Below are positions 1 through 56,051 of a stretch of 64,000 nt of DNA, one piece after another. Under the pieces are notes generated by a model, which saw nothing but the letters and a program-made list of their open reading frames with translations, did not search any database and had not been told where the DNA came from. Position numbers and translations under genes: made by a program. The DNA is taken from assembly GCA_044892525.1 (NCBI GenBank), contig CM097885.1:2668001-2732000 (forward strand). Direction: 5' to 3'. Every line of letters begins with the position of its first letter. The first letter of the stretch is position 1. This DNA is from Schmidtea polychroa. Its lineage: Eukaryota.

Positions 1-868
1 TAAATTATAACTGGATGTCCTATTTCTAGCATAACTACTAACCTCATCATATTTTAAAATAGCTAAAATGCTATATAAAAAACATGAATCATCGGTGTTT
101 TTTATATTAATTAAACAATATTTATTTTTTTTAGATAAGTAGGTAGTTCAATGAAACTCCTACCACTTAATCTACTTAGCCTACTTATCTTTGTTATGGT
201 GAAGTGAATTTCTGTTATTTTTTTTATGATCCAGCTACTTCCTAACTCTGTGATATTACTTATTTTCTCGTTTAGTTCCCTAATGCCTTCGTCAAAAAAT
301 GATGCAGTTAAAGGCTTTGCATAATTTGAGATATTATTAACCTTTATTTCCCCGTCTTTTTCAAATTCGATTGTTATTCCGAATTGAATTTTGACGGAGC
401 CTAATTCGTTAATAATATCTCGTAATTTTTTTATTAGTTGTTCAGGAAATATTATTTCTTTTATATTTAAGTCGCTTGTATTTAAGCTTAATATTTGATG
501 GGTACCTCTTAGATCTTTTTGTATTATTGGAACATTTCCACCTATTTGTATTATATTTAATCCATCCCAAGAGTCAAGGGAAATATTATCTAATCCGACC
601 TGGGATTCAACAACCAATCCATCATGGGATTCGACAACCAATCCATCATTGGATTCCACAAAAGGCAATCCGACCTGGGATTCAAAAGAAGAAGTATCTA
701 ATTTAATTTTTTAATTTTTATTATTTTTTTTTCTATAGTTGAGGGTCTTTTAAAAACACTATCTTTTTTAAAATTAAACCTATCTAAATGATTTTTATGT
801 TTATTATAAAAAACGCTATATGTTACGGGGTCACTAGTCTTACATACTGGACATATTTTAAAACACAT
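1..868 (-). CDS. Inverted second copy of the 5' part of pPolB-A, cut by the window edge
   Basis: Mirror image of 3965-4832, including the same A8 frameshift run (T8 at 125-132). Confidence 0.8.
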
Positions 869-1306
869 TTTGACGCTAAAGTTGACTTATTTAACATTTT
901 CATAATAATTTAATAAAAATAATGTGATGAACCCACAAAGTAATATCATTTTTCATCAAATTGCAAAACAGTAATAACGTTTTCATAAAATTGTAACAAA
1001 GTAATAACATATTTCAGATAAATTTTCAACAGTTGTAAAATATTTAAGCAAATTGTAACAAGATTAGAAAATATTACAACAAAGTAGTAACATATTTCAG
1101 AAAATTTCAACAAATTTGTAAAATATTTATCAAATTGTAACTAAAATAATAAAAATATTGCAACAAAGTAATAAAATAATAATGGTAATTAAGACAAATC
1201 AATACATTATTTCGAAGACGGACAACAAATTAAAAAGAATATTGTAACTAAAATAATAAAAATATTGCAACAAAGTAATAAAATAATACAACATTTTAAA
1301 CTCTAG

Positions 1307-1720
1307 ATCAATCCATTTTATAGAAAATTAAATTTTATCTATATAATATATGAATAAATATCCAAGGAAATTACGTTAACGTATAATAAATACAAATTTA
1401 TCGTAAAAACATGTGTGTATTACACACAAAACAAGATACATAATTTCTAATCAATCCATTTTATAGAAAATTAAATTTTATTTATATATTATATGAATAA
1501 AATCCTAAGAAAATTACGTTAACTGTATGAAAAATACAAATTTATCATAAAAACATGTGTGTATTACACACAACATACGAGACATAATTTTTAATCAAGC
1601 TATTTTATAGAAAATTAAATTTTATCTATATAATATATGAATAAAAATCCAAGAAAATTACGTTAACCGCGCGAAAAACTACAAATTTATTGTAAAAACA
1701 TGTGTGCATTACACACAAAG
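1307..1720. repeat. Three ~143-bp tandem units, each with a TGTGTG(T/C)A-T-TACACACA palindrome (mirror copy at ~3113-3526)
   Basis: Units start near 1307, 1450 and 1594 with atcaa..attttatagaaaattaaatttta and end in aaaacatgtgtgtattacacacaa-like sequence. Confidence 0.85.
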
Positions 1721-1902
1721 CATCAAACTGAAATTGTAATTGCGCCATGTTGTAGAGAATTAAATTCTGCCTATACATTGTTACACTTAAATCTCGATCA
1801 GACATGTGAAAAGAGACATAAAAGATAAAAAACAGTAGAGTAGTATGATGTGGGCCCGCCCGGCCAGGAGCCCGCTCGGCCACATATACCCCCTCCCCCC
1901 CG

Positions 1903-2925
1903 TTTGTAAAATAATGTTAATAATAATATTTATATATCAGTATATAGATTTTGCACTGGGCTTTAAAATAAGTGTTTGATTAATAAATTCGGATGATGGA
2001 AACATTACTTTTGGGAAGAAAAAAAGTAGGTCACCGCTGGACCAATTAATTTAAAAAAATTACGTAATAGTTCTAAAAATATTAGGCATCGTTCTAAAAA
2101 TATTAGGCATTGATTACGTAATAGTTCTAAAAATATTAGGCATCGTTCTAAAAGTATGACGTAATCTTTCTAAAAATATTAGGAATCGTTCTAAAAATAT
2201 TTGGCATCGTTCTAAAATATTAGGCATCGTTCTAAAAGTATGACGTAATCATTCTAAAAATATTAGGCATCGTTCTAAAATTATGACGTAATCATTCTAA
2301 AAATATTAGGCATCATTCTAAAAGTATGATGTAATCATTCTAAAAATAATAGACATCGTTCTAAAAATATTTGGCATCATTCTAAAATATTAGACATCAT
2401 TCTAAAAATGTGATGAGTCATTGTCTTTGTTCTAAAAATGTGATGAGTCATCGTATGATAAAAATCTATATCTCATTAGAAAGTTCTTGGACTGAGCTTT
2501 AAAATAAGCTATCGATCAATATAATATGTTGGCGGGAACAATAATTTTTGGGATGAAAAAAAGTAGGTCCCCGCTGGATCACTTAATAATATTTTGAAAA
2601 ATAATAATAATTTAACGTTGAAAAGATGGTGGTCATCAATTGTTAATAACATTAAAACTATTAAAGATATATAAGATACCTATAGCTCATTCGAAAGGCC
2701 TTGGACTGAGCTTGAAGATGAGGTATCGGTTAATAAAATTTGTTGGCGGGAACATTACTTTTGGGAAGAAAAAAAGTAGGTCCCCGCTGGATCACTTAAT
2801 TTAAAAAAAATTACGTAATAGTTCTAAAAATATTAGGCATCGTTCTAAAAATATTAGGCATTGATTACGTAATAGTTCTAAAAATATTAGGCATCGTTCT
2901 AAAAAAAAAAAATAAAATTTTTTCC
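1903..2925. repeat. Non-palindromic spacer: ~20-22 bp tandem array (ttctaaaaatattaggcatcg / ttctaaaagtatgacgtaatc) plus three copies of a ~100-bp motif
   Basis: The array spans ~2060-2450 and ~2810-2900. The motif ending ttttgggaagaaaaaaagtaggtccccgctggatcacttaat recurs at ~1955-2050, ~2472-2588 and ~2686-2800. Confidence 0.85.
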
Positions 2926-2987
2926 CGGGGGGGGGGGGAGGGGGTATATGTGATCTGGAGGGGACATGGTCTGGGGAGCTCACATCC

Positions 2988-4832
2988 TACTACTCTACTG
3001 TTTTTTATCTTTTATGTCTCTTTTCACATGTCTGATCGAGATTTAAGTGTAACAATGTATAGGCAGAATTTAATTCTCTACAACATGGCGCAATTACAAT
3101 TTCAGTTTGATGCTTTGTGTGTAATGCACACATGTTTTTACAATAAATTTGTAGTTTTTCGCGCGGTTAACGTAATTTTCTTGGATTTTTATTCATATAT
3201 TATATAGATAAAATTTAATTTTCTATAAAATAGCTTGATTAAAAATTATGTCTCGTATGTTGTGTGTAATACACACATGTTTTTATGATAAATTTGTATT
3301 TTTCATACAGTTAACGTAATTTTCTTAGGATTTTATTCATATAATATATAAATAAAATTTAATTTTCTATAAAATGGATTGATTAGAAATTATGTATCTT
3401 GTTTTGTGTGTAATACACACATGTTTTTACGATAAATTTGTATTTATTATACGTTAACGTAATTTCCTTGGATATTTATTCATATATTATATAGATAAAA
3501 TTTAATTTTCTATAAAATGGATTGATCTAGAGTTTAAAATGTTGTATTATTTTATTACTTTGTTGCAATATTTTTATTATTTTAGTTACAATATTCTTTT
3601 TAATTTGTTGTCCGTCTTCGAAATAATGTATTGATTTGTCTTAATTACCATTATTATTTTATTACTTTGTTGCAATATTTTTATTATTTTAGTTACAATT
3701 TGATAAATATTTTACAAATTTGTTGAAATTTTCTGAAATATGTTACTACTTTGTTGTAATATTTTCTAATCTTGTTACAATTTGCTTAAATATTTTACAA
3801 CTGTTGAAAATTTATCTGAAATATGTTATTACTTTGTTACAATTTTATGAAAACGTTATTACTGTTTTGCAATTTGATGAAAAATGATATTACTTTGTGG
3901 GTTCATCACATTATTTTTATTAAATTATTATGAAAATGTTAAATAAGTCAACTTTAGCGTCAAAATGTGTTTTAAAATATGTCCAGTATGTAAGACTAGT
4001 GACCCCGTAACATATAGCGTTTTTTATAATAAACATAAAAATCATTTAGATAGGTTTAATTTTAAAAAAGATAGTGTTTTTAAAAGACCCTCAACTATAG
4101 AAAAAAAAATAATAAAAATTAAAAAATTAAATTAGATACTTCTTCTTTTGAATCCCAGGTCGGATTGCCTTTTGTGGAATCCAATGATGGATTGGTTGTC
4201 GAATCCCATGATGGATTGGTTGTTGAATCCCAGGTCGGATTAGATAATATTTCCCTTGACTCTTGGGATGGATTAAATATAATACAAATAGGTGGAAATG
4301 TTCCAATAATACAAAAAGATCTAAGAGGTACCCATCAAATATTAAGCTTAAATACAAGCGACTTAAATATAAAAGAAATAATATTTCCTGAACAACTAAT
4401 AAAAAAATTACGAGATATTATTAACGAATTAGGCTCCGTCAAAATTCAATTCGGAATAACAATCGAATTTGAAAAAGACGGGGAAATAAAGGTTAATAAT
4501 ATCTCAAATTATGCAAAGCCTTTAACTGCATCATTTTTTGACGAAGGCATTAGGGAACTAAACGAGAAAATAAGTAATATCACAGAGTTAGGAAGTAGCT
4601 GGATCATAAAAAAAATAACAGAAATTCACTTCACCATAACAAAGATAAGTAGGCTAAGTAGATTAAGTGGTAGGAGTTTCATTGAACTACCTACTTATCT
4701 AAAAAAAATAAATATTGTTTAATTAATATAAAAAACACCGATGATTCATGTTTTTTATATAGCATTTTAGCTATTTTAAAATATGATGAGGTTAGTAGTT
4801 ATGCTAGAAATAGGACATCCAGTTATAATTTA
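2988..4832. repeat. Right arm of the large inverted repeat (mirror of 1-1845)
   Basis: Reverse complement of 1-1845. Imperfect similarity continues inward to about 1902/2926. Confidence 0.95.
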
Positions 4833-7748
4833 TCTGAATTAATATATAATCCATTGGACTTACCCATGAAATTAAAAGATATTAGAAAATTCGAGGCCAA
4901 AAATCCAGGCTTAATAATTAACGTTTTTTCTTATGACAATAACAAACAATTAATAGATAATTACGTATTAAAACACCCACATTTAGATATTATACATCGT
5001 TCCAAAGTTTTAAATGGAACTGTAATTAATTTACTATTATTAAATAAAGGAAACAATTTCCATTACGTTGCTATAAGTAATTTAAATAAGTTAATGAATT
5101 GTCATATCAACACTAGTTGTCCTACACGCATACGTTCATTATGGTGCCATCGGTGTTTGAATGGGTTTAATAATAAACACGCACTAGAAAAACATGAAAT
5201 ATTATGTAAACGTAATCAATTAGGAACAACTCTTTACACCTTCCCTCAAAATAAATTATTACAGTTTACTGACTGGTCGAAAACAGTAACTCCTCCTTTT
5301 GTAGTTTATGCAGATTTTGAGGCTATTTTACCTTCTGATAATGATCATTTCCAACGACACATGCCAATATCTGCTGGTCTTTTACTTGTAAATAACTTTG
5401 ACGGATCTAAATCTTATCAGCAGTTCATAGGTTTAGATTGCGTCGAGAGTTTTTTAAGTGCTATAGAGGATATAGCATTAAATAAGGTTCTTCCTTTTTA
5501 TTATAAAATGGGTAGGAAACCTATGATGAAATTAACAAAAATTGAACAACGTCAATTTGTTAGTGCATCTGTTTGTTATCTTTGTATGAAATCTATCGTC
5601 GATCCTGTTAGAGATCACGATCATTTTACGGGGAAATACTTGGGTGCAGCTTGTAGCACATGTAACGTAAATAGGAAAATAAATAAAATTTTGCCTATCG
5701 TATTTCACAACTTGAAGGGATACGATATGCACCATATACTTAAATATGGATTAAATAAATTTAAAAATTGGAATTTAGGGTGCATCCCAATAACTACGGA
5801 AAAATTTATATCTTTGATTGCTCATTTAGGTAAAATTAGCCTAAGATTCATTGATTCGTATCAATTTGTCAATGATTCTTTGGCTAAAGCAGTCAAAACT
5901 TTGAATTCTTTGCCTTTTACTAATTCTGCTTTTTCTGGCACCATAGTAAGTGAAAAAGGAATCTTCCCTTATAATTTCGCCACTTCTTTAGATATTCTCC
6001 AAACTACTTATGAATTACCACCAATCTGGGAGGGTGTCACTGAGCTTGAGTATGAAAAAGCTCAGGAGATTTGGGTAGAAACTAATTGCGTAACTTTATT
6101 AGATTATATGATGATCTACCTAAAACTTGATTGTTTTCTTTTGGCTGATTTCTTTCATCAGTTTCGGTTGAAATCCATTGCTCACAATAGATTGGAACCA
6201 TTGAATTATTTCGGAATTCCAGGCATGTCTTGGTCTTCTGCATTAATGTCTTTAAATGAACCAATTGAACTCATAACTGAAAACGAAATGTTTAGCTTTT
6301 ATGAGGGTGGAATAAGAGGCGGTCTTACTTTTGTGAATAAGCATTACGTAAAAACCGACGAGAACACTGAGTTACTATATATAGATATTAATAATCTTTA
6401 TGGCTGGGCTTTAAGTCAATCATTACCTTGTGGCGAATTTTGTTGGGTTCTTGATGGATTTGATAAAATAATGGATGAATGTAGGAATTTAAATCTTGAA
6501 TCTTTGTCTTATGGATACACACTTGAAGTTGATCTTGTAATTCCTTCTGAGCTTCATGATAAGTTGGATGATTTCCCTGTAGCTGCTGAAAAAATGAAAC
6601 CTGCTGGGTCTAAGGTTGAAAAATTATTATTAACTCATCTTCCAAAATCTAATTATGTTATTCATTGGAGATTATTAAAATTATATTTGGAACTTGGTGT
6701 TAAAGTAACACGTGTAAATAGGGGTGTAAGATTTAAGCAATCACCAATTTTTAAAAAATATATAGATACAAATACCGAATTAAGATCAAAAAGCGTAAAT
6801 AGCTTAGATAAAAATTATTATAAATTGCTAAATAATAGTTTATACGGCAAAACAGTTGAAAATTTAAAGAGAAGAATGAATCTTCGTCTTTGTACAACTG
6901 CCGGTAAATTAGTTAAATATTCGTCAAAACCGACTTTTAAAAAATCTATTAAAATAGCAGATAATTTAATTGCAGCACTATTGAATTCCGATTCTATATG
7001 TTTAGATAGACCGAGTTACATTGGTCAATCTGTACTTGATCTATCTAAACTTAGAATGTATGAATTGCAATATAAGGATCTGGAATCATTTCGCAATGAG
7101 TTTAATTGTAAAATTAATATCGTTGCAGGTGATACAGATTCTTTTTTCCTCGAAGTCATTAACTGCAAACTTGAGGTTCTTTTACCTGCAATGGTTCGAG
7201 ATAATTTATTGGATACTTCCAATTACAATAGTTGTCATTCCTTATATAGTAAGAACCTTGATTCAGTCATTGGAAAGTTCAAAGACGAGAATAAAGGTCT
7301 TAAATATAAGGAGTGGGTTTTTCTTAGACCTAAATGTTATAGCTTGTTGGGTGATGAGGAAACAAAAAAGGCTAAAGGTGTAACATTGAAAGGTGGTGAC
7401 ATAAAACATCAGTCATACCTGGATTGTTATAACACTAACCAGATTTTTTCGGTTCCTCAGACTAAAATAACAAGCAAAAATCATCAAATTTTTACAATTA
7501 AAAACACAAAAATAGCACTAACTAACAAAGATGACAAAAGGGTTTGGGTGGGGCAAAATACTAGTCTTGCATATGGGCATGTAAGATTAAGTGAATTAAA
7601 TATTGGAGAAAATGTTGGAGAAATTGTTGCAGAAAATGTTTCAGAAAATGTTGGAGAAAATGATGGAGAAGATGAGGAAGAATTAAATGAAGATTTTGGA
7701 GAAGATGACATCGATATCGATGACGTTATTTTGTCCGATGAGGACTAA
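3965..7748 (+). CDS. pPolB-A: Polinton/Maverick-type protein-primed family B DNA polymerase with N-terminal zinc finger, terminal-protein/vOTU-like region and endonuclease VII-like insertion; needs two -1 frameshifts as assembled
   Basis: Exo motifs YADFE, FHNLKGYD, YLKLDCFLLAD. Pol motifs YIDINNLYG, KLLNNSLYGK, GDTDS, KCY, KAKGV. Endo VII-like CYLC..VRDHDHFTGKYLGAACSTCN. The frame upstream of 4854 reads NKYCLINIKNTDDSCFLYSILA and joins ORF 4165-4722 (GSSW...SFIELP) across A8 at 4701-4708. ATG 3965 opens MCFKICPVCK..HKNH, joined across A6 at 4121-4126 (this join is less certain). Confidence 0.92.
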
Positions 7749-7935
7749 TTTTATTGAATAAATTTTATATCTTTACATTTGTTATTTGGTAAATTTTTAT
7801 GTTTGTTATGTGTCTAGTTCATTTTTATGTGTTTAGTTAATGTTTATATGTTTTGTTATGTGTCTAGTTATTTTTATGTGTTTAGTTAATTTTTTATGTG
7901 TTGTATAGTATTTGGTTGATATATTATTAATATTA

Positions 7936-8006
<71 letters not shown>

Positions 8007-8199
8007 TCATAAAAATTTTCATTAAAAATTATCTTAAAAATTATTCTATTAAAATTTCCATTAAAAATTACCATTGAAAATTATTCATAAAAATTTCTAT
8101 TAAAAATTACTTAAAAAATAATTCATTAAAATTTCCATTAAAAAATTTCAATTCTCAAACACCTTCTATTTTTGTTAATAAATTTAAAAATCTTACTTT

Positions 8200-8812
8200 A
8201 ATTTACTTATTACATTACTTTAATTTACTTATTTAAAAATTATTACTTTAATTTACTTATTTAACTTTAATTTAAATTTTTTTTTACCATTGATTATTTA
8301 ATTTTAAAATTTGGACCTTAATTAACTTTAATTTAATTTTTAGAACCATAATTTACTTTAATTTTAAAATTTTTGACCATTATTTACTGTAATTTAAAAT
8401 ATTTGGACCATTATTTACTTTAATTTAATTTTTTAGAACCATTATTTACTTTAATTTAAAAATTTGGATCATAATTTACTTTAATTTAAATTTTTGGACT
8501 GTAATTCAAAAATTTTGACCATAATTTACTTTAATTTAATTTTTAAGAACCATAATTTACTTTAATTTAATTTTTAAGAACCATAATTTACTTTAATTTA
8601 AAAATTTGGACCATAATTTACTGTAATTTAATTTTTTTAGAACCATTATTTACTTTAATTGAAAAATCTTAGCCCATAATTTACTTATTTAGACCATAAT
8701 TTACTTTATTTCAAAAATAAATCTGAACCTTGATTTACTTAAATTTTTAGACCCATCATTTACTTTATTTTTAAATTTTAGACCCATAATTTACTTTATT
8801 TTAAAAATTTAC
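8200..8812. repeat. Degenerate ~29-30 bp tandem array (gaccataatttactttaatttaaaaattt) downstream of pPolB-A
   Basis: Many recurring accataatttacttta units are directly visible. Confidence 0.85.
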
Positions 8813-8986
8813 TATGCGTTTTATAATGTAAACCACCTTTTCTATTGAAATTCTCATGACCAAGAAGATCCCCTCACTATAGTGTGAAAAATCCATGCTT
8901 TTTTATTGAAGACTACCTTTTTCTATTGAAATTCTCAGGACCAAGGAGACCCACCCAAATAATATTTATCCTTGGCTTGTTTATTG

Positions 8987-9017
<31 letters not shown>

Positions 9018-9135
9018 TATTTAAAATCCCAGAAAACATTGGGCATTACGGCAACAATTATGTAATCAAAAAATGTCTACGGAAAAAGTTATGCAATCAA
9101 AAGTTTGCAACATTTTTTACCCCCCCCCCCCCCCC

Positions 9136-9465
9136 TATTGCTGCCGCGGGCCACTAACTACCTACTTTTCTGTGGCTGATGGTTTCTTAACTGAAATAGT
9201 TTCATTATCTTATACTTCTAAAAAGAAAAGTTTATATAGAGAAGTTTGTTTATCAATAGAATTAGGAATCTCTAAATTATTTTTATTTCAATTAAAAGCT
9301 TTGGAAGATGGAATCCTGACAGACGAAGAAATAATGAAATCAAATCAAATAATACAAGATATAAAGAATGAGGTTATAAGATTAAAAAGGGAGGGCATGG
9401 TGGCTAATGTTATAAGTAATAAAAAAACATCTCGAGAAAAATGGTTAAAGAATTCTTACTTATAA
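9136..9465 (+). pseudogene. Probable 5'-truncated small accessory protein converging on pPolB-B
   Basis: A hydrophobic stretch is followed by SKL...KALEDGILTDEEI, resembling from memory a helical ORF often seen in animal Polintons (unverified). The coding-like sequence starts abruptly after the poly-C tract at 9120-9135. Confidence 0.4.
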
Positions 9466-9559
9466 AATGGGTGTATTTTTAAAAAAGTAGATCAGGTTGC
9501 TATAGTTGCTTAAATTAATTGTCGACATTTTATTATTAAAAAATTAAATATCGTTGGTT

Positions 9560-12500
9560 TCAGTTATGGTTGAAAGCCAACCTATGAATCATTAATTTAT
9601 GATCTTTAAATTCTTTATCACTTAGACCTTTTATATATTCAGGATCAGTATTAAAATATTTAAGTTCTAAACATATAGGATTAAAAACTTGAGAATATAA
9701 AGGTTTCTCGATTTCTCTCTCGGGATAAATAATTTCAACATTATAAATATCAAGATCAGTAATCTTTGTATCATATAACTTATTCAACTTTTCTAGATTT
9801 TTTATTATAGGGATTAAATTATTTCCAATAGGTAGAGTTGTCTTTAAATCACTTAGTATGAATCTCTTATCATCATAATTTGATAATGATACTTTTTGAG
9901 ATTCTATCAAGTGAATATCATGGTTTTCACTTTTAAGTTGATGTATTTCATCAATTTTATCTTTATGATTTGGATTCAATGTATCTATATAATCTTGATG
10001 AGAAAGATTCTTTGCAACCACTCTCTGTATTCCTTTACATCTGTTATCCTTTACAGGTTTTTCTTCTTTAGGAAATATAGGATATCTATGTGTAATGGTT
10101 TCTTCTGTTTCTGGAGTTTTAAATATAAATGATCTAGTTATAAATTCAGGGTTTCTAAATGTTTCGTATGAATATTGTTTAGCACGAATAAATATTCCAT
10201 TTTCTATAGGAGTAAAAGGTTTTTCATCTTTAAACGAAAATAATTCTCCAGATGAATTTATTAAATTTGAAAGTATAGGATTTTCTTTCATATCTTTTTG
10301 TAAATCATGAGTTCTTATTGTTAAAAACATTGAATCTGTATCCATTGCATGCATTGATATATTTGCTCCGTATATAGGTTGTAAGATGTTATAATATGTT
10401 TCATACATTTGTAATTTTGAAAGTTCTAAAATTGTAAACCCTATAAATATTGGTTTGTTATATGTTTTCTCATAATTTTTTAATTCTACTGCAGTAAGAT
10501 TTTCAGAAAATACTTGTGCGTTTTTAAATGTAGGCTTTCCTAGCATGCGATTATAACGCTTAATATCTTTGGTAGTATTTGTTAGGAGTTCAATATGAGT
10601 ATATTTATCAACATTCTCCATTGTTTTCCCAAAGACTGAATTGTTTAAAATTTTATAATTATTATCTTTAAAAAGATTACCTTCTCTTTTTGCAATGTTT
10701 CGGCACCTAATGTTCTCCTCGATAAAAGCTTTCATGAATGGAGCTTGTTTAAATCTTATGACACTATGAACTTTTTTTAATATCATTCCTCGTGAAAGAT
10801 AAAATTGGAGGAGTCTATAGTGACAAAGATAAAACCTTCGATCTGTTTGATCACAAAGAAGTTTCATTGTTGGAGGTTTATCTTGTGAGATTTGCCATTC
10901 AGAAAGTTCGTTGATATCAATCTTTCTTCTTACAGGAGCTAATGGAAAATATCTTGTTCCTGATTTTATATCATCTGGATAGTCGAGGTCGCATTCTATA
11001 AAGTAACCTATTGGAGAATCTTTCGATGTTGAAAGTATTTCTTTCATAAGGTCATCTGTTGGGTTCTCTATTTCAGTGAAATCACCCATTGGTAAAAATT
11101 GAGTCATAATTCCTGAATATAAAGCTGTTGCATCTATATAAAGTATAAATATAGGATTTTTCATTGTTTCTAATAATTCTTTTAATTCCTCATTGTTAAT
11201 TTTCATATATGGATCATCAGGGTGTTTAGATAGTCTTCGGCTAGTAGTTATTGCATTTCTAGCTTTTATTTCTCTATTCCCCCTTACTGAAGAGACTCCT
11301 CCTCTAATGTTTGTTTTAATTTGGTTAAACATATCGAGGTTAGTTAAAAGATCTATAATTTATCACCTTCTTCTATATTTGAAGTCCAAATGGTATATAA
11401 CATAGTATCCCAAGCTAAAGAGGGTGCAGTTATATAATTATAAGGTTTAAGAACAAAAGATTTTGTAAATTCTTCAAAGCAATCTGCTAGAATATAAACA
11501 TCCAAGGATAAATACATACTTGTATATTCTCCTAAAGTTTTACACTTGAATAATTCCCACATTTTATTTGCTCGAGAATATTCTTGATTTGTAATATGAT
11601 TTTTTTGAAGTTGTGAATAGAAATCTTCTTGGCTAGGAAGACTTGTTTCATTATATCTTTCAAACGAGTCAACATAGTCATAAGGATATATTCCTTTTGC
11701 TAAACATGTAGGATATTCTTCTAGAGAAATATTATTTTTTTCCAAGAATTCTCGAGTGATTTTAAAATTTTCTGGTTTCATTGTTTTTGCTACTGCATCT
11801 AAAGACATTTGGAGAAAGTTTAACGAGTCTATAAATTTTAATTTTCCATATTCAATTGATTTATATTTTTCCTTTGTTAAGCCGATAACTTTGAAAGAGT
11901 TTTTAGCATTTGCTGCGAGGTGTTTAATAAATAGATGTATGTCATATCCAAAAAGATTATGAAATATAACAGGTATAAATTTAGGAGTATGGCAATTAAG
12001 ATTGCAATTTTTATGAGCTGCTCCTCGATAATTATTTTCCTTTTTTAAATGATCATGATCTATAACTTTTTCATCAGGAAGAATATTCTGTTTACACATC
12101 CAACAGTTGGAAGTATTTTCATATTCTTGTTGTTGTTGATTAGAAATATTTTGAGGATACTTTGTTTTTAATATTTTAAATATTTCATGTTCTAGATCAT
12201 TTATATTTTTAGTAAAATGATTCAAGACTTCTTCAGGGGTACCTCCTAGAATTGAATATTCTCTAGATTCTATGAGTTCAGGATAATTACTTTTAAATAA
12301 TAATTTATAAGCAGATGGTAATTGTTTAGTTTTTTTAACACTATTAGGTTTATTTCTTTTTCTTAGAAAGGCTTTCATCCTCTCTGGTTTCATCTTCTCT
12401 CCTGAGGAGTTCCATAAATCCATGAGTTTATTTTTTTCTATTATTTTTAAATATTGATAAACCAAATCTTGTTTATGGTTTATAGATTCAAAGTCACCAT

Positions 12501-13878
12501 AAAGAACTCCAACTGTTTGTAGTAAATTTGAAAAGTTTTTAAAATACATCTTGGGATTATTAGGCATTTTAATTAAAGCTGGATCATCTTTTTCACAAAA
12601 TCTTGTATGTTTAATCATAGAGTTTTTAGTTGTTGAATAATGAAGACATCTTTTACATGTTCCTCCTCCACTAGTTAGATTCTCTGGAGATGTAAAAGCT
12701 TGAAAGTTTTTTATTAAAACATAATGTTGATTATTTTCTTGTTCCAAGATTAAAAGATATATCTCGTTGTCCTGTGCTCCGTTATCCTTGGTTCCACTAT
12801 CTGAAATATAAATTGGAATAATTTCTTTCCCTATAACATGTTCATAAATATTAAGTTTAAGATTATTTAATTTTTCAAATTCTGGAATGTCTTCTAGTTT
12901 CATTGGGTGTTTGAATCCTTTGGGAAATATTAATTCATTTTCATATTGTTTGTATTTTGAAACTCTTTCGGGATTTGTTGCTTGAGGATGTAAATGTGCA
13001 AGTATTGACCAGATGAAACATTTGTTATCATTATTCTGTACATTTATAACATTTTTAGATTTAAAGGGTGTAGGAATATAAGATTTAGGATTGGGTGGTA
13101 ATCCTCTCCAATAATCAATCACTAAAGTTTGGAAAGAGTTGAATACTAAGTTTGAATCTCCTAATTCATTTTCTACTTCCTCTTGTTTTGCTTCTGCTGC
13201 TTTAATTATTTCTTTGATGGTTTTATCAAATCCTTTAATTGAAAATAAATATTTAAAAGGTATTCCAATTTCAACATCTAAGGGTGTTGTCTTTTCTTCT
13301 GCTCCTCTCCAGTATTTTGCTTTGATTATAATTTTATATTTTATAACATTATACCTTGTCGGTTTATAATTTTTTAAAGCTTCAGTGAAAGAATTTTTAA
13401 TATTTTTTTTATTTTTATTTATATATTCTCCAGGAGTTGCAGGCCCATTAATTTTTAATTGAAATTCATCTATATGATTAAAATTATCCCAGTTATATTT
13501 TTCTCTTTCAACATGATCAGGTTCTCCTTCTGAATGACATTCCTCATCGTCAGAATTTTGTTTTTTATTTTTACATTCTTTTATATGTTCTAAATAATAG
13601 AAATTTAGTTTTGTTGAAAAGTTACAATGAGGACATGTAAATATTTCTCTATTTTTCTCGATACAATTTTCAAAATGTTTATTATATCCAGAATGTAGAA
13701 ATCTTCCTTTACATTTAAGACAAAGTTTTGAATTTGTATCATTAAGATTATTTTCTTTTAATAAATGAGCTTTCGATTTTAAGTGAGAAATTAATCCAGT
13801 TTTATTTTTAAAAACTTTATTGCAAATATTACAATTCATTTTTAGAAATAAATTTTTTATTGGATACCCTGTTTTCAT
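9560..13878 (-). CDS. pPolB-B: second, divergent Polinton/Maverick-type protein-primed DNA polymerase with N-terminal zinc fingers; one -1 frameshift as assembled
   Basis: CNICNKVF..HLKSKAH finger; SYIPTP..INVQNNDNKCFIWSILA; YGDFES; CWMC..IDHDH..YRGAAHKNCN; FHNLFGYD; YLSLDVYILAD. ORF 9560-11332 then gives IRGG, YIDATALYS, KILNNSVFGK, MDTDS, KQY, CKGI. One extra base near 11359-11361 would fuse the two ORFs (…DKIIDLLTNLDMFNQ). Confidence 0.92.
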
Positions 13879-13944
13879 TTTATTTTTTAAGATTTATATT
13901 ATTCATTTTTTATAATAAAAATTTAAAAAATGACAAAAATTCAA

Positions 13945-14026
13945 ACCTTGATGGCGCAGTGGGCTAGACTGACACAGTGGTTCAAAATGCTAGCGGTTCA
14001 AATCACATCTGAGGTTAGTTTTTTTT
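13945..14026 (+). ncRNA. Putative RNA polymerase III (type 2 promoter) small RNA, tRNA-like but not a canonical cloverleaf
   Basis: A box TGGCGCAGTGG at 13952-13962, B box GGTTCAAATC at 13995-14004, T8 terminator at 14019-14026. The ends can pair (aaccttgatg / catctgaggtt). Confidence 0.5.
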
Positions 14027-14198
14027 CAACATAAAATAATATTAAAAATTTGAAAATAATATTGAAAATAGTGTGGGTATCTTATATTTATAAAGTACTT
14101 GTATATTTTATTTTATTTATTTTATTTTATTTTATTTTTTTATTAATTAATTATTTTTTAAACATAAATATGAAAAAAAAAATATTGAAACGGGTGAT

Positions 14199-14562
14199 GG
14201 TGGCGAACCGGTAATTATCGCCACCTGTCTTTCGAACACCCCCGGATCGATCCCGGTAATGTGCACATTTATTTCTCAGTTGTTTTCGGACCTCTTTCGA
14301 ATTCGCTTTCGAATTCATTTGTACTTTCGAGCAGCACACTTAAAACGCCGATGAAATCGTATTCGAGCGAGAAGCGAATAATAAGGCGTGCTGCTATTAT
14401 CGGATTGATTCTGATGTATGAGTCTGGCCAGCTTGTATATTGGAAGAGATTCGATAAACGAAAGAGGTTGATAAATAAAAAAAATGATCCGGATCAAAAA
14501 AAAACTGTTGAGGGGACAGTGAAAAAAAAAAAAAAATACCACTGTCCCCTCAGAGCAGTTTT
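14199..14562. other. Densely base-paired non-coding region upstream of pPolB-B
   Basis: Stems at 14199-206/14218-225, 14242-48/14486-92, 14290-99/14459-68 and 14330-37/14388-95, plus a perfect 13-bp stem at 14509-21/14540-52. Confidence 0.65.
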
Positions 14563-16043
14563 ACTATTTTTCATTTATTTTTTAATTTATATAATTTAAA
14601 ATCAATAACTTCCTCTAACTTTTTCATAATGCCATTTTCTTTTCTATTCTCTTTTTAGTTTGAAGCTTTTGAGTTTGAGGCTTTAAAGATTAAAACAGTT
14701 AGAGTCATTAAGGGTGGTTGTTTTCAAAATATAGGGTTAAAATACTATAAAAGTATAAGTTTTAGGTTGTTTTTCTAATAGCTTAAGTGATTTGGAGGCA
14801 TGTTTTTGTTGGGGGGCTGTTTTGGTTGGGTATATAACCACACTACTATCAACACCTAGCGGAGAATCGGTCAAACGTGAACTTTGGTTGTCATTTATTG
14901 TTGAGAGAAATATAATTTTGTGATTCAAATATATTTTGGGTATTTTATTGTTTTGATTAAAAGAACACGGGGAGTCAGAGGTTACCGACTTAAATTAACT
15001 AAAACCCAACAACTCTATATGACATGGGACTTCCGAACTCATGCCTCTGAGAGTACACATATTTCGTATTACATTAATATAAATACCGGAACATTGGCTA
15101 AACTTTATTCCGAATTCATTGCAGTAATCGAGATGGAAATCGTCACTTCTTCTTAGTGTATTTCCTCACTACTTAGTAGAGTATCTTTCTTATCATCTGC
15201 AATTGTCTTATGAGCGCAGAGTTTTCCCATAAAAAATACTAAATATGCAAAATTATTCATGAGGATACAGGAATAATAAAATAAAACAATTATTAAATGA
15301 GTAAAATGATTAAGGGAAACAAGTGTAATGCCAGACCTCCAAAAAGCAATAAGGAAAGTGAAATGGAAAAATAATAACAAAGAATCAATTAATAAAAATA
15401 ATAGTGGTTATTAATAAGTTAGTGCAAGTTGAAAATAGAAGTTTAAAAATAAAAATAAAACGCAAAAGGAATTCGCTCATCTTGACAAGTTGTTTGAGCT
15501 AATGAAATGGTATAAAACCCAAAAATTTATCGATTAACGAACAAAATTTTATCAAGTTTTATTCAATGTCCAAACCATAAAGCCAAATCAATTATTATAA
15601 TGAAAAAATCGACATATGACAAACAAAATTGTTAAAAAGGTAACGAATTGCAAATTTTTCGATTAAATTTCCAATAATTTCAATTTTATTTGAATATAAT
15701 TTAACCAATAATTAAAAGAAATACAAAAGTTTTGTTAATAAAAGATATATTCCCAATACTTCAAACTTCCCAGCAAATGACAGTTATTTTGCAACATTGT
15801 AATAGCTGTTACAAATTATTTTTACAAAAACTTTTATAATTTATTAGAAATTTCTATTTGTTTAGGTGAATGAATAAAATCATTTTTAATATGTAGCTAA
15901 ATGAATTTCAAAATTATTTATTAAATTTCTGATGTTAATTATATTTTAATTTTCTGTTTATTTTATAATAATTTACTTTTGGAATTATTGATTGAATAAA
16001 ATATTCTTTTTTCAGTAAAAATTTCTATTTTTGATATCATTAA

Positions 16044-36399: not shown

Positions 36400-44032
<7,633 letters not shown>

Positions 44033-47394: not shown

Positions 47395-56051
<8,657 letters not shown>

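What the first reader, a model, noticed from the sequence alone, without database searches (positions are those of the whole stretch)
1846..2987. Inner ends of the inverted repeat: same register, diverged 26-nt GC-rich core, compensatory stem change
Seen: identity stops at AGTAGAGTAGTA (1834-1845), but the mirror register is kept. The left end has stem ATGTGG(1848-53)/CCACAT(1880-85) and the right has ATGTGA(2948-53)/TCACAT(2980-85), a G-C to A-T paired swap. The enclosed 26 nt match at only 15/26, yet each holds two ~13-nt direct repeats 16 nt apart (gcccgcccggcca/gcccgctcggcca versus gctccccagacca/cccctccagatca). Both are followed by CACATATACCCC and a poly-C tract. Inference: selected terminal or recombination signals with left/right identity. 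Short AGT/TAC repeats are typical of termini of protein-primed replicons.
Basis: partly seen in the sequence, partly recalled or inferred. Interest (0 to 1): 0.7.

Follow-up and report, generated by a model that had tools for sequence, protein, structure and literature searches.

The report
Maverick ends at a palindrome's centre
Two slightly different ends of a virus-like jumping element (Maverick/Polinton) face each other across a 1-kb spacer in an animal genome, and they probably folded onto each other and primed the copying that made the perfect mirror-image arms around them.

Summary
The arms 1-1845 and 2988-4832 match at 1845 of 1845 positions. The register continues inward with 14 mismatches, 13 of them within 28 nt, and the paired G-C/A-T swap is real. 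The stems fold no better than shuffles. The host is an animal, and the right arm runs into a broken Polinton-type polymerase gene. AGTAGAGTAG (1834) and CTACTCTACT (2999) most likely are Maverick/Polinton ends facing inward. They bound a 1,166-bp non-coding piece with 68-bp ends that are 79% alike. As a single strand, the two ends pair into a panhandle with a matched 3' end, so self-primed copy-back would give exactly this mirror. This predicts a 13.5-kb palindrome ending at 9166. Public contigs show a very abundant, mixed family, but no listed record bridged either junction and no genome was held. Left/right identity is therefore unproven. Earlier scan notes (unchecked) report many palindromic Mavericks in this genome, though not this centre. 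Verdict: new variant of a known kind, interest 0.4.

The parts
1..1833 (-). Left mirror arm; runs off the window edge; holds the mirrored 5' part of the polymerase gene (ORF 111-668) and mirrored 144-bp repeats
1834..1901 (+). End 'L': Maverick/Polinton-type terminus read inward (AGTAG repeat, GC-rich core, CACATATA, poly-C)
   Evidence: sequence
1848..1885 (+). 6-bp inverted pair enclosing two 13-nt direct repeats 16 nt apart; more likely a double-stranded binding site than a hairpin (inference)
1902..2931 (+). Polar non-coding spacer: three ~100-bp units in direct orientation (about 1951, 2488, 2701; 76-86% alike) and 21-bp tandem arrays (2052-2409, 2804-2905)
2932..2999 (-). End 'R': second terminus, 54 of 68 identical to L, with a longer poly-G/C tract that varies in length among public contigs
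3000..4832 (+). Right mirror arm as far as the window shows its partner; 144-bp repeats at 3114-3531
4165..7748 (+). Polinton-type protein-primed DNA polymerase gene (PF03175 plus endonuclease VII-like insert), broken by a frame break near 4,700; the same break is mirrored in the left arm
9120..9166 (-). Candidate outer terminus of another subtype (AGTAG repeat, GC-rich box, poly-G); predicted right end of the palindrome
   Evidence: likeness to L only marginal, 41 of 1,000 shuffles

Best explanation
L and R are two Maverick/Polinton termini that face inward and bound a 1,166-bp non-autonomous piece lying upstream of a polymerase gene. They diverged long ago under constraint, probably as ends of sister subfamilies, which kept the terminal repeat, the inverted pair and the poly-C block while the core changed (inferred). 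Much later a single strand ending at L arose, most likely a displaced strand of protein-primed replication, or else a resected break. It folded back so that its 3' end paired with R across the 1-kb loop. The 3' end was extended over the arm and the polymerase gene to the outer end, and second-strand synthesis gave a mirror-image element with the old imperfect ends at its centre (inferred). Shown: the sequence anatomy, the motif orientation in relatives, and the computed panhandle. Not shown: the event itself, the enzyme, the left outer end.
For: Identity is perfect outside the ends (1845 of 1845) but 79% inside them (54 of 68), close to the 76-86% among the spacer's own units; this points to two ages. 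The family is very mixed: only 26,400 of 107,396 contigs laid from run X1 are 99% alike or better, and 468 variant places were counted, so identical arms must come from one molecule or be homogenised. On both strands the first 19 pairs (bar the mismatch at 1846) and most of the inner 21 pairs form with probability 0.9-1.0, leaving a paired 3' end. The duplex energy is -50.5 kcal/mol against a mean of -17.1 and a best of -31.5 in 300 shuffles. 8 of 90 related loci (7 distinct contigs) start with GTAGT(A/G) pointing at pPolB, against 2 and 2 of 90 in the two outward controls and a background of 134 of 15,103. There is no direct target duplication around L-R, as expected if one flank was overwritten. 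Diverged inverted repeats 1.5-5 kb apart give inverted dimers in single-stranded DNA in yeast (PMC10164571, passages).
Against: Neither junction is bridged by any of the 32 records listed out of 99,716. Two diverged contigs from two studies (X3 record 9, X7 record 25) align to the arm down to 2990 and then continue with 129 and 19 unaligned letters. So CTACTCTACT travels with the arm in old copies, which a one-off insertion does not explain. The terminal 12 matched letters may be a product of the copying and not its primer. The relatives that show termini are distant (27-33% protein identity). L resembles only 1 of 6 of their ends clearly (L059, 0 of 1,000 shuffles), L066 and L061 weakly (13 and 31 of 1,000) and 3 not at all, and R resembles none. 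The yeast repeats were 320 bp long against 68 bp here.
Confidence: 0.5

Rival explanations
1. Family-wide design, the first reader's idea made concrete: L and R are a selected, deliberately unequal pair. A one-armed linear form ends at L, folds onto internal R in every cycle and self-primes, so the arms are continually rewritten while the loop and cores drift under a pairing constraint.
For: Mismatches avoid exactly the two blocks that clamp the panhandle. The terminal motif stays attached to the arm in diverged contigs of two studies. The spacer and the poly-G tract before R are covered by many contigs in X1, X3 and X5. Relatives L048 and L065 also carry internal terminus-like motifs in ~155-bp repeats near an end.
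Against: In run X1, 28 contigs continue left of 1910 with other sequence, so the L-spacer joint is not universal. There is only one covarying pair and no folding excess. Run X7 showed no cover over L and none over R's core, though a hole proves nothing.
Confidence: 0.22
2. The ends face outward: the arm element itself begins at 2990 with CTACTCTACT, two copies sit head to head, and the cores belong to whatever lies between them.
For: Two independent contigs lose alignment at exactly 2990.
Against: Published Maverick ends and relatives read AGT inward. The mirror register continues 56 nt past that point, including a 21-nt exact block.
Confidence: 0.1
3. Library or assembly chimera: an amplification or long-read fold-back at the 68-bp imperfect repeat, or arms polished onto one another.
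For: Perfect identity, including the same frame break in both arms. No bridging record was listed.
Against: All parts exist in independent runs, and L and R differ in a patterned way unlike consensus error. Earlier scan notes report palindromic Mavericks with target duplications in this genome, but those notes are unchecked and are leads only.
Confidence: 0.1
4. A mini-element inserted at the axis of an already palindromic Maverick, with no part in making it.
For: The region is crowded with Polinton pieces (second pPolB at 9560-13878), and termini of relatives cluster next to each other (L065).
Against: The flanks are mirror images and not a direct duplication, for both terminus placements tested. 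Insertion exactly on the axis needs a special target.
Confidence: 0.08

Closest known systems
Maverick/Polinton elements and their non-autonomous derivatives (PMC8097293; 10.1101/2023.08.22.554363; passages seen)
   Same: AG/AGT-repeat termini read inward; adjacent pPolB with PF03175 and an endonuclease VII/HNH-like insert (the pPolB2 group is described with an HNH insert; placement in it was not tested by a tree); animal host; high copy number.
   Different: The terminus pair lies at the centre of a larger mirror, is only 68 bp and 79% alike (100-1,500 bp is typical), and has no target duplication. No integrase, ATPase, protease or capsid gene was found in the window.
Fold-back inverted dimers primed by spaced, diverged inverted repeats in single-stranded DNA (PMC10164571, passages seen)
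   Same: Same end product: perfect arms outside, imperfect repeat in register, unique spacer kept.
   Different: Shown for yeast chromosomes with 320-bp Alu repeats and host repair proteins; here the repeats are 68-bp element ends and the single strand may come from protein-primed replication.
Racket/panhandle intermediate proposed for Polinton replication (as summarised in PMC4196379, passages seen); adenovirus panhandle repair and snap-back genomes (recalled, not read)
   Same: A single strand pairs through its terminal repeats.
   Different: Here one partner is internal, so pairing leaves a template overhang that yields a palindromic dimer and not a unit-length copy.

Membership tests
Maverick/Polinton | Protein-primed family B polymerase | tested here: met
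   PF03175 E=4e-31 on 4854-7745; 2,197 relatives, best 62% identical. The gene is broken near 4,700 and lies outside the L-R piece.
Maverick/Polinton | Short AG/AGT repeat at the 5' ends | tested here: met
   AGTAGAGTAGTA at both ends (2 matches, 0.05 expected). It is a variant of the published (AGT)2 and (AG)3 motifs, not an exact match.
Maverick/Polinton | Terminal inverted repeats of 100-1,500 bp | tested here: not met
   The L-R pair is 68 bp at 79%. The outer arms would be far longer (at least 1.8 kb, 6.2 kb if 9166 is the end).
Maverick/Polinton | 5-8-bp (usually 6-bp) target site duplication | tested here: not met
   None for 1834/2999, 1839/2994 or 1834/9166. The predicted outer left end lies outside the window and could not be tested.
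Maverick/Polinton | Integrase, packaging ATPase, protease, capsid genes | tested here: not met
   736 open frames from the 90 related loci hit the window only in its polymerase regions, and none of 19 window ORFs scanned had such a Pfam family. Relative L018 has a weak adenoviral protease hit, E=0.013.
Maverick/Polinton | Dispersed copies with element-host junctions at these ends | not testable with these tools
   No genome held; short contigs gave abundance but no flanks.
Fold-back inverted duplication | Perfect arms beginning at a pre-existing in-register inverted repeat around a unique spacer | tested here: met
Fold-back inverted duplication | Both junctions present in independent molecules | tested here: inconclusive
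   No bridging record among 32 listed of 99,716.

The most novel reading that the evidence does not exclude
The unequal L/R pair is a selected, built-in hairpin primer. These Mavericks would replicate as a one-armed linear strand that self-primes on an internal terminus copy and integrates as a palindromic dimer, which grafts parvovirus-like self-priming onto a protein-primed element. It would explain the giant mirror-image Mavericks noted elsewhere in this genome.
Probability: 0.17. Interest if true: 0.75.

Novelty: new variant of a known kind. Interest (0 to 1): 0.4.

Why it matters
How Mavericks/Polintons copy themselves is inferred, not observed. A palindrome that still carries two mismatched element ends at its centre marks the base where copying restarted, so it is a fossil of a single-stranded, panhandle-forming intermediate. 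If the arrangement recurs across copies, the racket model becomes testable from genome sequence alone. If it is unique, it is an ordinary rearrangement in a Polinton-crowded region.

Tried and rejected
No genome was held, so other copies could not be aligned. Exact motif scans found 0 matches in viral contigs and 3 in prokaryote genomes, with about 17 expected by chance and unrelated flanks. The single-protein viral scan found no relative. No Rfam match in 1700-15500 and no tRNA in the window. No RNA holder was listed among the runs, which is no evidence on expression. My first impression that L058's start resembles L failed its test (295 of 1,000 shuffles), as did a candidate end at 14847 (107 of 1,000). 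I tried to derive an L:R ratio from binned depth and dropped it, because contigs that fit both mirror places make it undefined. The far ends of two viral relatives could not be read. The ORF remnant right of 9166 had no atlas hit above 0.79 and no hit in the loci, so 9166 is not confirmed as an insertion point. A parvovirus-type flip/flop relation was considered and rejected by eye: the cores are homologous in register and are not inverted complements. A bidensovirus reading was rejected because the terminus of L087 is unlike these ends. Paper searches listed nothing on palindromic Mavericks with inward-facing ends at the centre. The library lacks most subscription journals, only listings and selected passages were seen, and no supplements were read.

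Full report
Observation. The window opens with an inverted repeat whose arms, 1-1845 and 2988-4832, have no mismatch in 1,845 positions; the left arm runs off the window. The same register continues for 56 more positions with 14 mismatches, the last 21 positions (1881-1901) being identical again, and then breaks at 1902/2931. The 6-bp inverted pairs, the two-sided G-C to A-T change and the 15 of 26 core identity are as stated. The direct repeats are clear on the left (12 of 13) and weaker on the right (9 of 13).

Is it more than chance? The differences are clustered: 13 of 14 fall within 28 nt (p=0.0003 over the 68-nt zone, 0.0024 if the first 12 nt are left out). Keeping the stem with a two-sided change happened in 0.44% of 200,000 random placements, but the stem was chosen after being seen, and the test involves one pair in two sequences. 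The ends do not fold better than shuffles (z +0.33 to -1.08). I read the motif as a double-stranded binding site and not as a hairpin (inference). Parallel changes in both repeats were not significant (p=0.09).

Surroundings. The host is an animal: the window holds an intron-split R7-type RGS gene and other eukaryotic genes. The right arm leads into a Polinton-type protein-primed polymerase (PF03175, E=4e-31, with an endonuclease VII-like insert). It is broken near 4,700, and the same break is mirrored in the left arm. Its N-terminal part looks like the terminal-protein and vOTU region described for polintons (PMC11071308, passages); this is by resemblance and was not modelled. A second, distant polymerase lies at 9560-13878. 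No other Polinton gene was found: 736 open frames from 90 related loci hit only the polymerase regions. The spacer is polar, with three direct ~100-bp units and 21-bp arrays.

Which way do the ends face? Vertebrate Mavericks begin with (AGT)2 or (AG)3 and end with the complement (PMC8097293, passages). Among the 90 loci fetched with the polymerase alignment (77 metagenomic, from the best 80 of 492 confirmed stretches, and 13 viral), 8 have GTAGT(A/G) in their first 36 bases pointing at the polymerase; two of these appear to be the same contig. The far end had it in 4 of 90, the two outward controls in 2 and 2 of 90, and the background was 134 of 15,103. So AGTAG at 1834 and CTACT at 2999 most simply open and close the 1,166-bp inner piece. 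Caveats: those relatives are only 27-33% identical in protein, the closer ones do not reach an end, and beyond the motif only L059 clearly resembles L while none resembles R. A third end-like stretch closes at 9166; its likeness to L is marginal (41 of 1,000 shuffles).

Public runs. Of 24 listed runs, 20 hold part of 1700-7760. I laid 4 of them, from 3 studies; X1 may be the window's own source. All are short contigs, so depth is no copy number. Still, 107,396, 8,290, 11,449 and 671 records were laid, with 468 variant places, which shows an abundant and mixed family covering spacer, arm and gene. The poly-G tract at 2927 varies in length in X1, X3 and X5. Results that cut against a simple story follow. 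No record among the 32 listed of 99,716 bridges either junction. In X1, 28 contigs continue left of 1910 with other sequence (24 of 3,536 loose ends were shown). Two diverged contigs (X3, X7) follow the arm down to 2990, including CTACTCTACT, and then carry 129 and 19 unaligned letters. The last point means the terminal motif is an old companion of the arm, with further core variants or other flanks beside it; I could not see those letters.

Mechanism. There are two ages here. L and R are 54 of 68 alike, similar to the spacer's own units (78 of 102, 80 of 100, 88 of 102), whereas the arms are identical in a family full of variants. Folding the inner piece as single-stranded DNA pairs L with R. 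The first 19 pairs (bar one mismatch) and most of the inner 21 form at probability 0.9-1.0, the core is loosely paired, and the 3' end is matched next to the arm as template. Extension of that end copies the arm, the gene and the outer end, and second-strand synthesis gives the observed layout, with perfect identity starting at the terminus and no target duplication. Such fold-back at spaced, diverged repeats is shown in yeast single-stranded DNA (PMC10164571, passages), and a single-stranded racket intermediate is the standing proposal for Polintons (PMC4196379, passages; the original paper was not read). I put this reading at 0.5. If 9166 is the outer end, the element is 13,500 bp and its left end lies 4,333 bases before the window.

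Rivals. A selected, recurrent self-priming pair with left/right identity (0.22) fits the conserved clamp blocks and the old motif-arm linkage, but not the variable joint at 1910. Outward-facing ends starting at 2990 (0.1), a library or assembly chimera (0.1) and an insertion on the axis of an older palindrome (0.08) remain open.

Earlier scan notes. Notes from other windows of this genome describe gene-less palindromic Mavericks of 10.9-17.7 kb, some with target duplications, and a copy-back element. I had written the fold-back idea down before seeing them. They are unchecked and are not counted as evidence. Searches by sequence, by nearness and by words found no note on this centre.

Comparison and novelty. 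The piece works like a non-autonomous Maverick derivative and like a fold-back inverted dimer. As a member it fails three tests (repeat length, target duplication, other core genes), so I call it a Maverick-derived rearrangement and not an intact Polinton. Polinton ends are known substrates of rearrangement (10.1101/2024.01.15.575659, passages), and general descriptions give 15-25 kb elements with ordinary ends (PMC6431247 and 10.1101/2023.08.22.554363, passages). Six searches listed no description of this centre arrangement; the library is partial and supplements were not read.

Verdict. The feature is real, and the termini reading is largely right, but the ends face inward. The best reading is a copy-back scar; left/right identity is untested. 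New variant of a known kind, interest 0.4. The bold reading, a built-in hairpin primer, has probability 0.17 and would merit 0.75.

Noticed in passing
window 9560-13878 (-): A second, unrelated Polinton-type polymerase gene (27-29% identical to the first) with an N-terminal zinc finger, split in two frames near 11,340.
   Followed up: partly
window 14501-14562: Strong DNA hairpin upstream of the second polymerase (z=-6.9, 0 of 200 shuffles); it shares GAGGGGACA with the R core.
   Followed up: no
window 2060-2450, 2811-2872: The spacer's 21-bp arrays carry repeated TGACGTAA, TTACGTAA and TGAGTCA words, which resemble CRE/AP-1 sites (recalled); possibly an enhancer.
   Followed up: no
window 1910 and 3937: Many public contigs continue leftward with other sequence at these two points (28 and 33 contigs in X1; 3 in X7 at 3937), so the family is a mosaic of modules.
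   Followed up: partly
L059, L061, L066, L029, L065 termini: These relatives share a GGGGTTCT(A/G)G-like box 12-20 nt inside the AGTAGTA end, reminiscent of a Pol III B box (recalled). The window's ends lack it.
   Followed up: no
L065:7380-7560; L048:6370-6670: Repeats of about 155 bp, each holding a terminus-like TACTAC motif, followed by a new AGTAGTA end (in L065 a near head-to-tail junction).
   Followed up: partly
window 50993-51664 (+): Intronless ORF fusing an EAP30/Vps36 piece to a proteasome-subunit piece between AAT microsatellites; it looks like a captured host-gene mosaic.
   Followed up: no
window 40481-41849: Tc1-like DDE transposase ORF (40644-41660) between 61-bp inverted repeats that are 97% alike.
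   Followed up: no
window 53573-55539: R7-family RGS gene (DEP, DHEX, GGL, RGS) with introns, the main sign of an animal host.
   Followed up: partly
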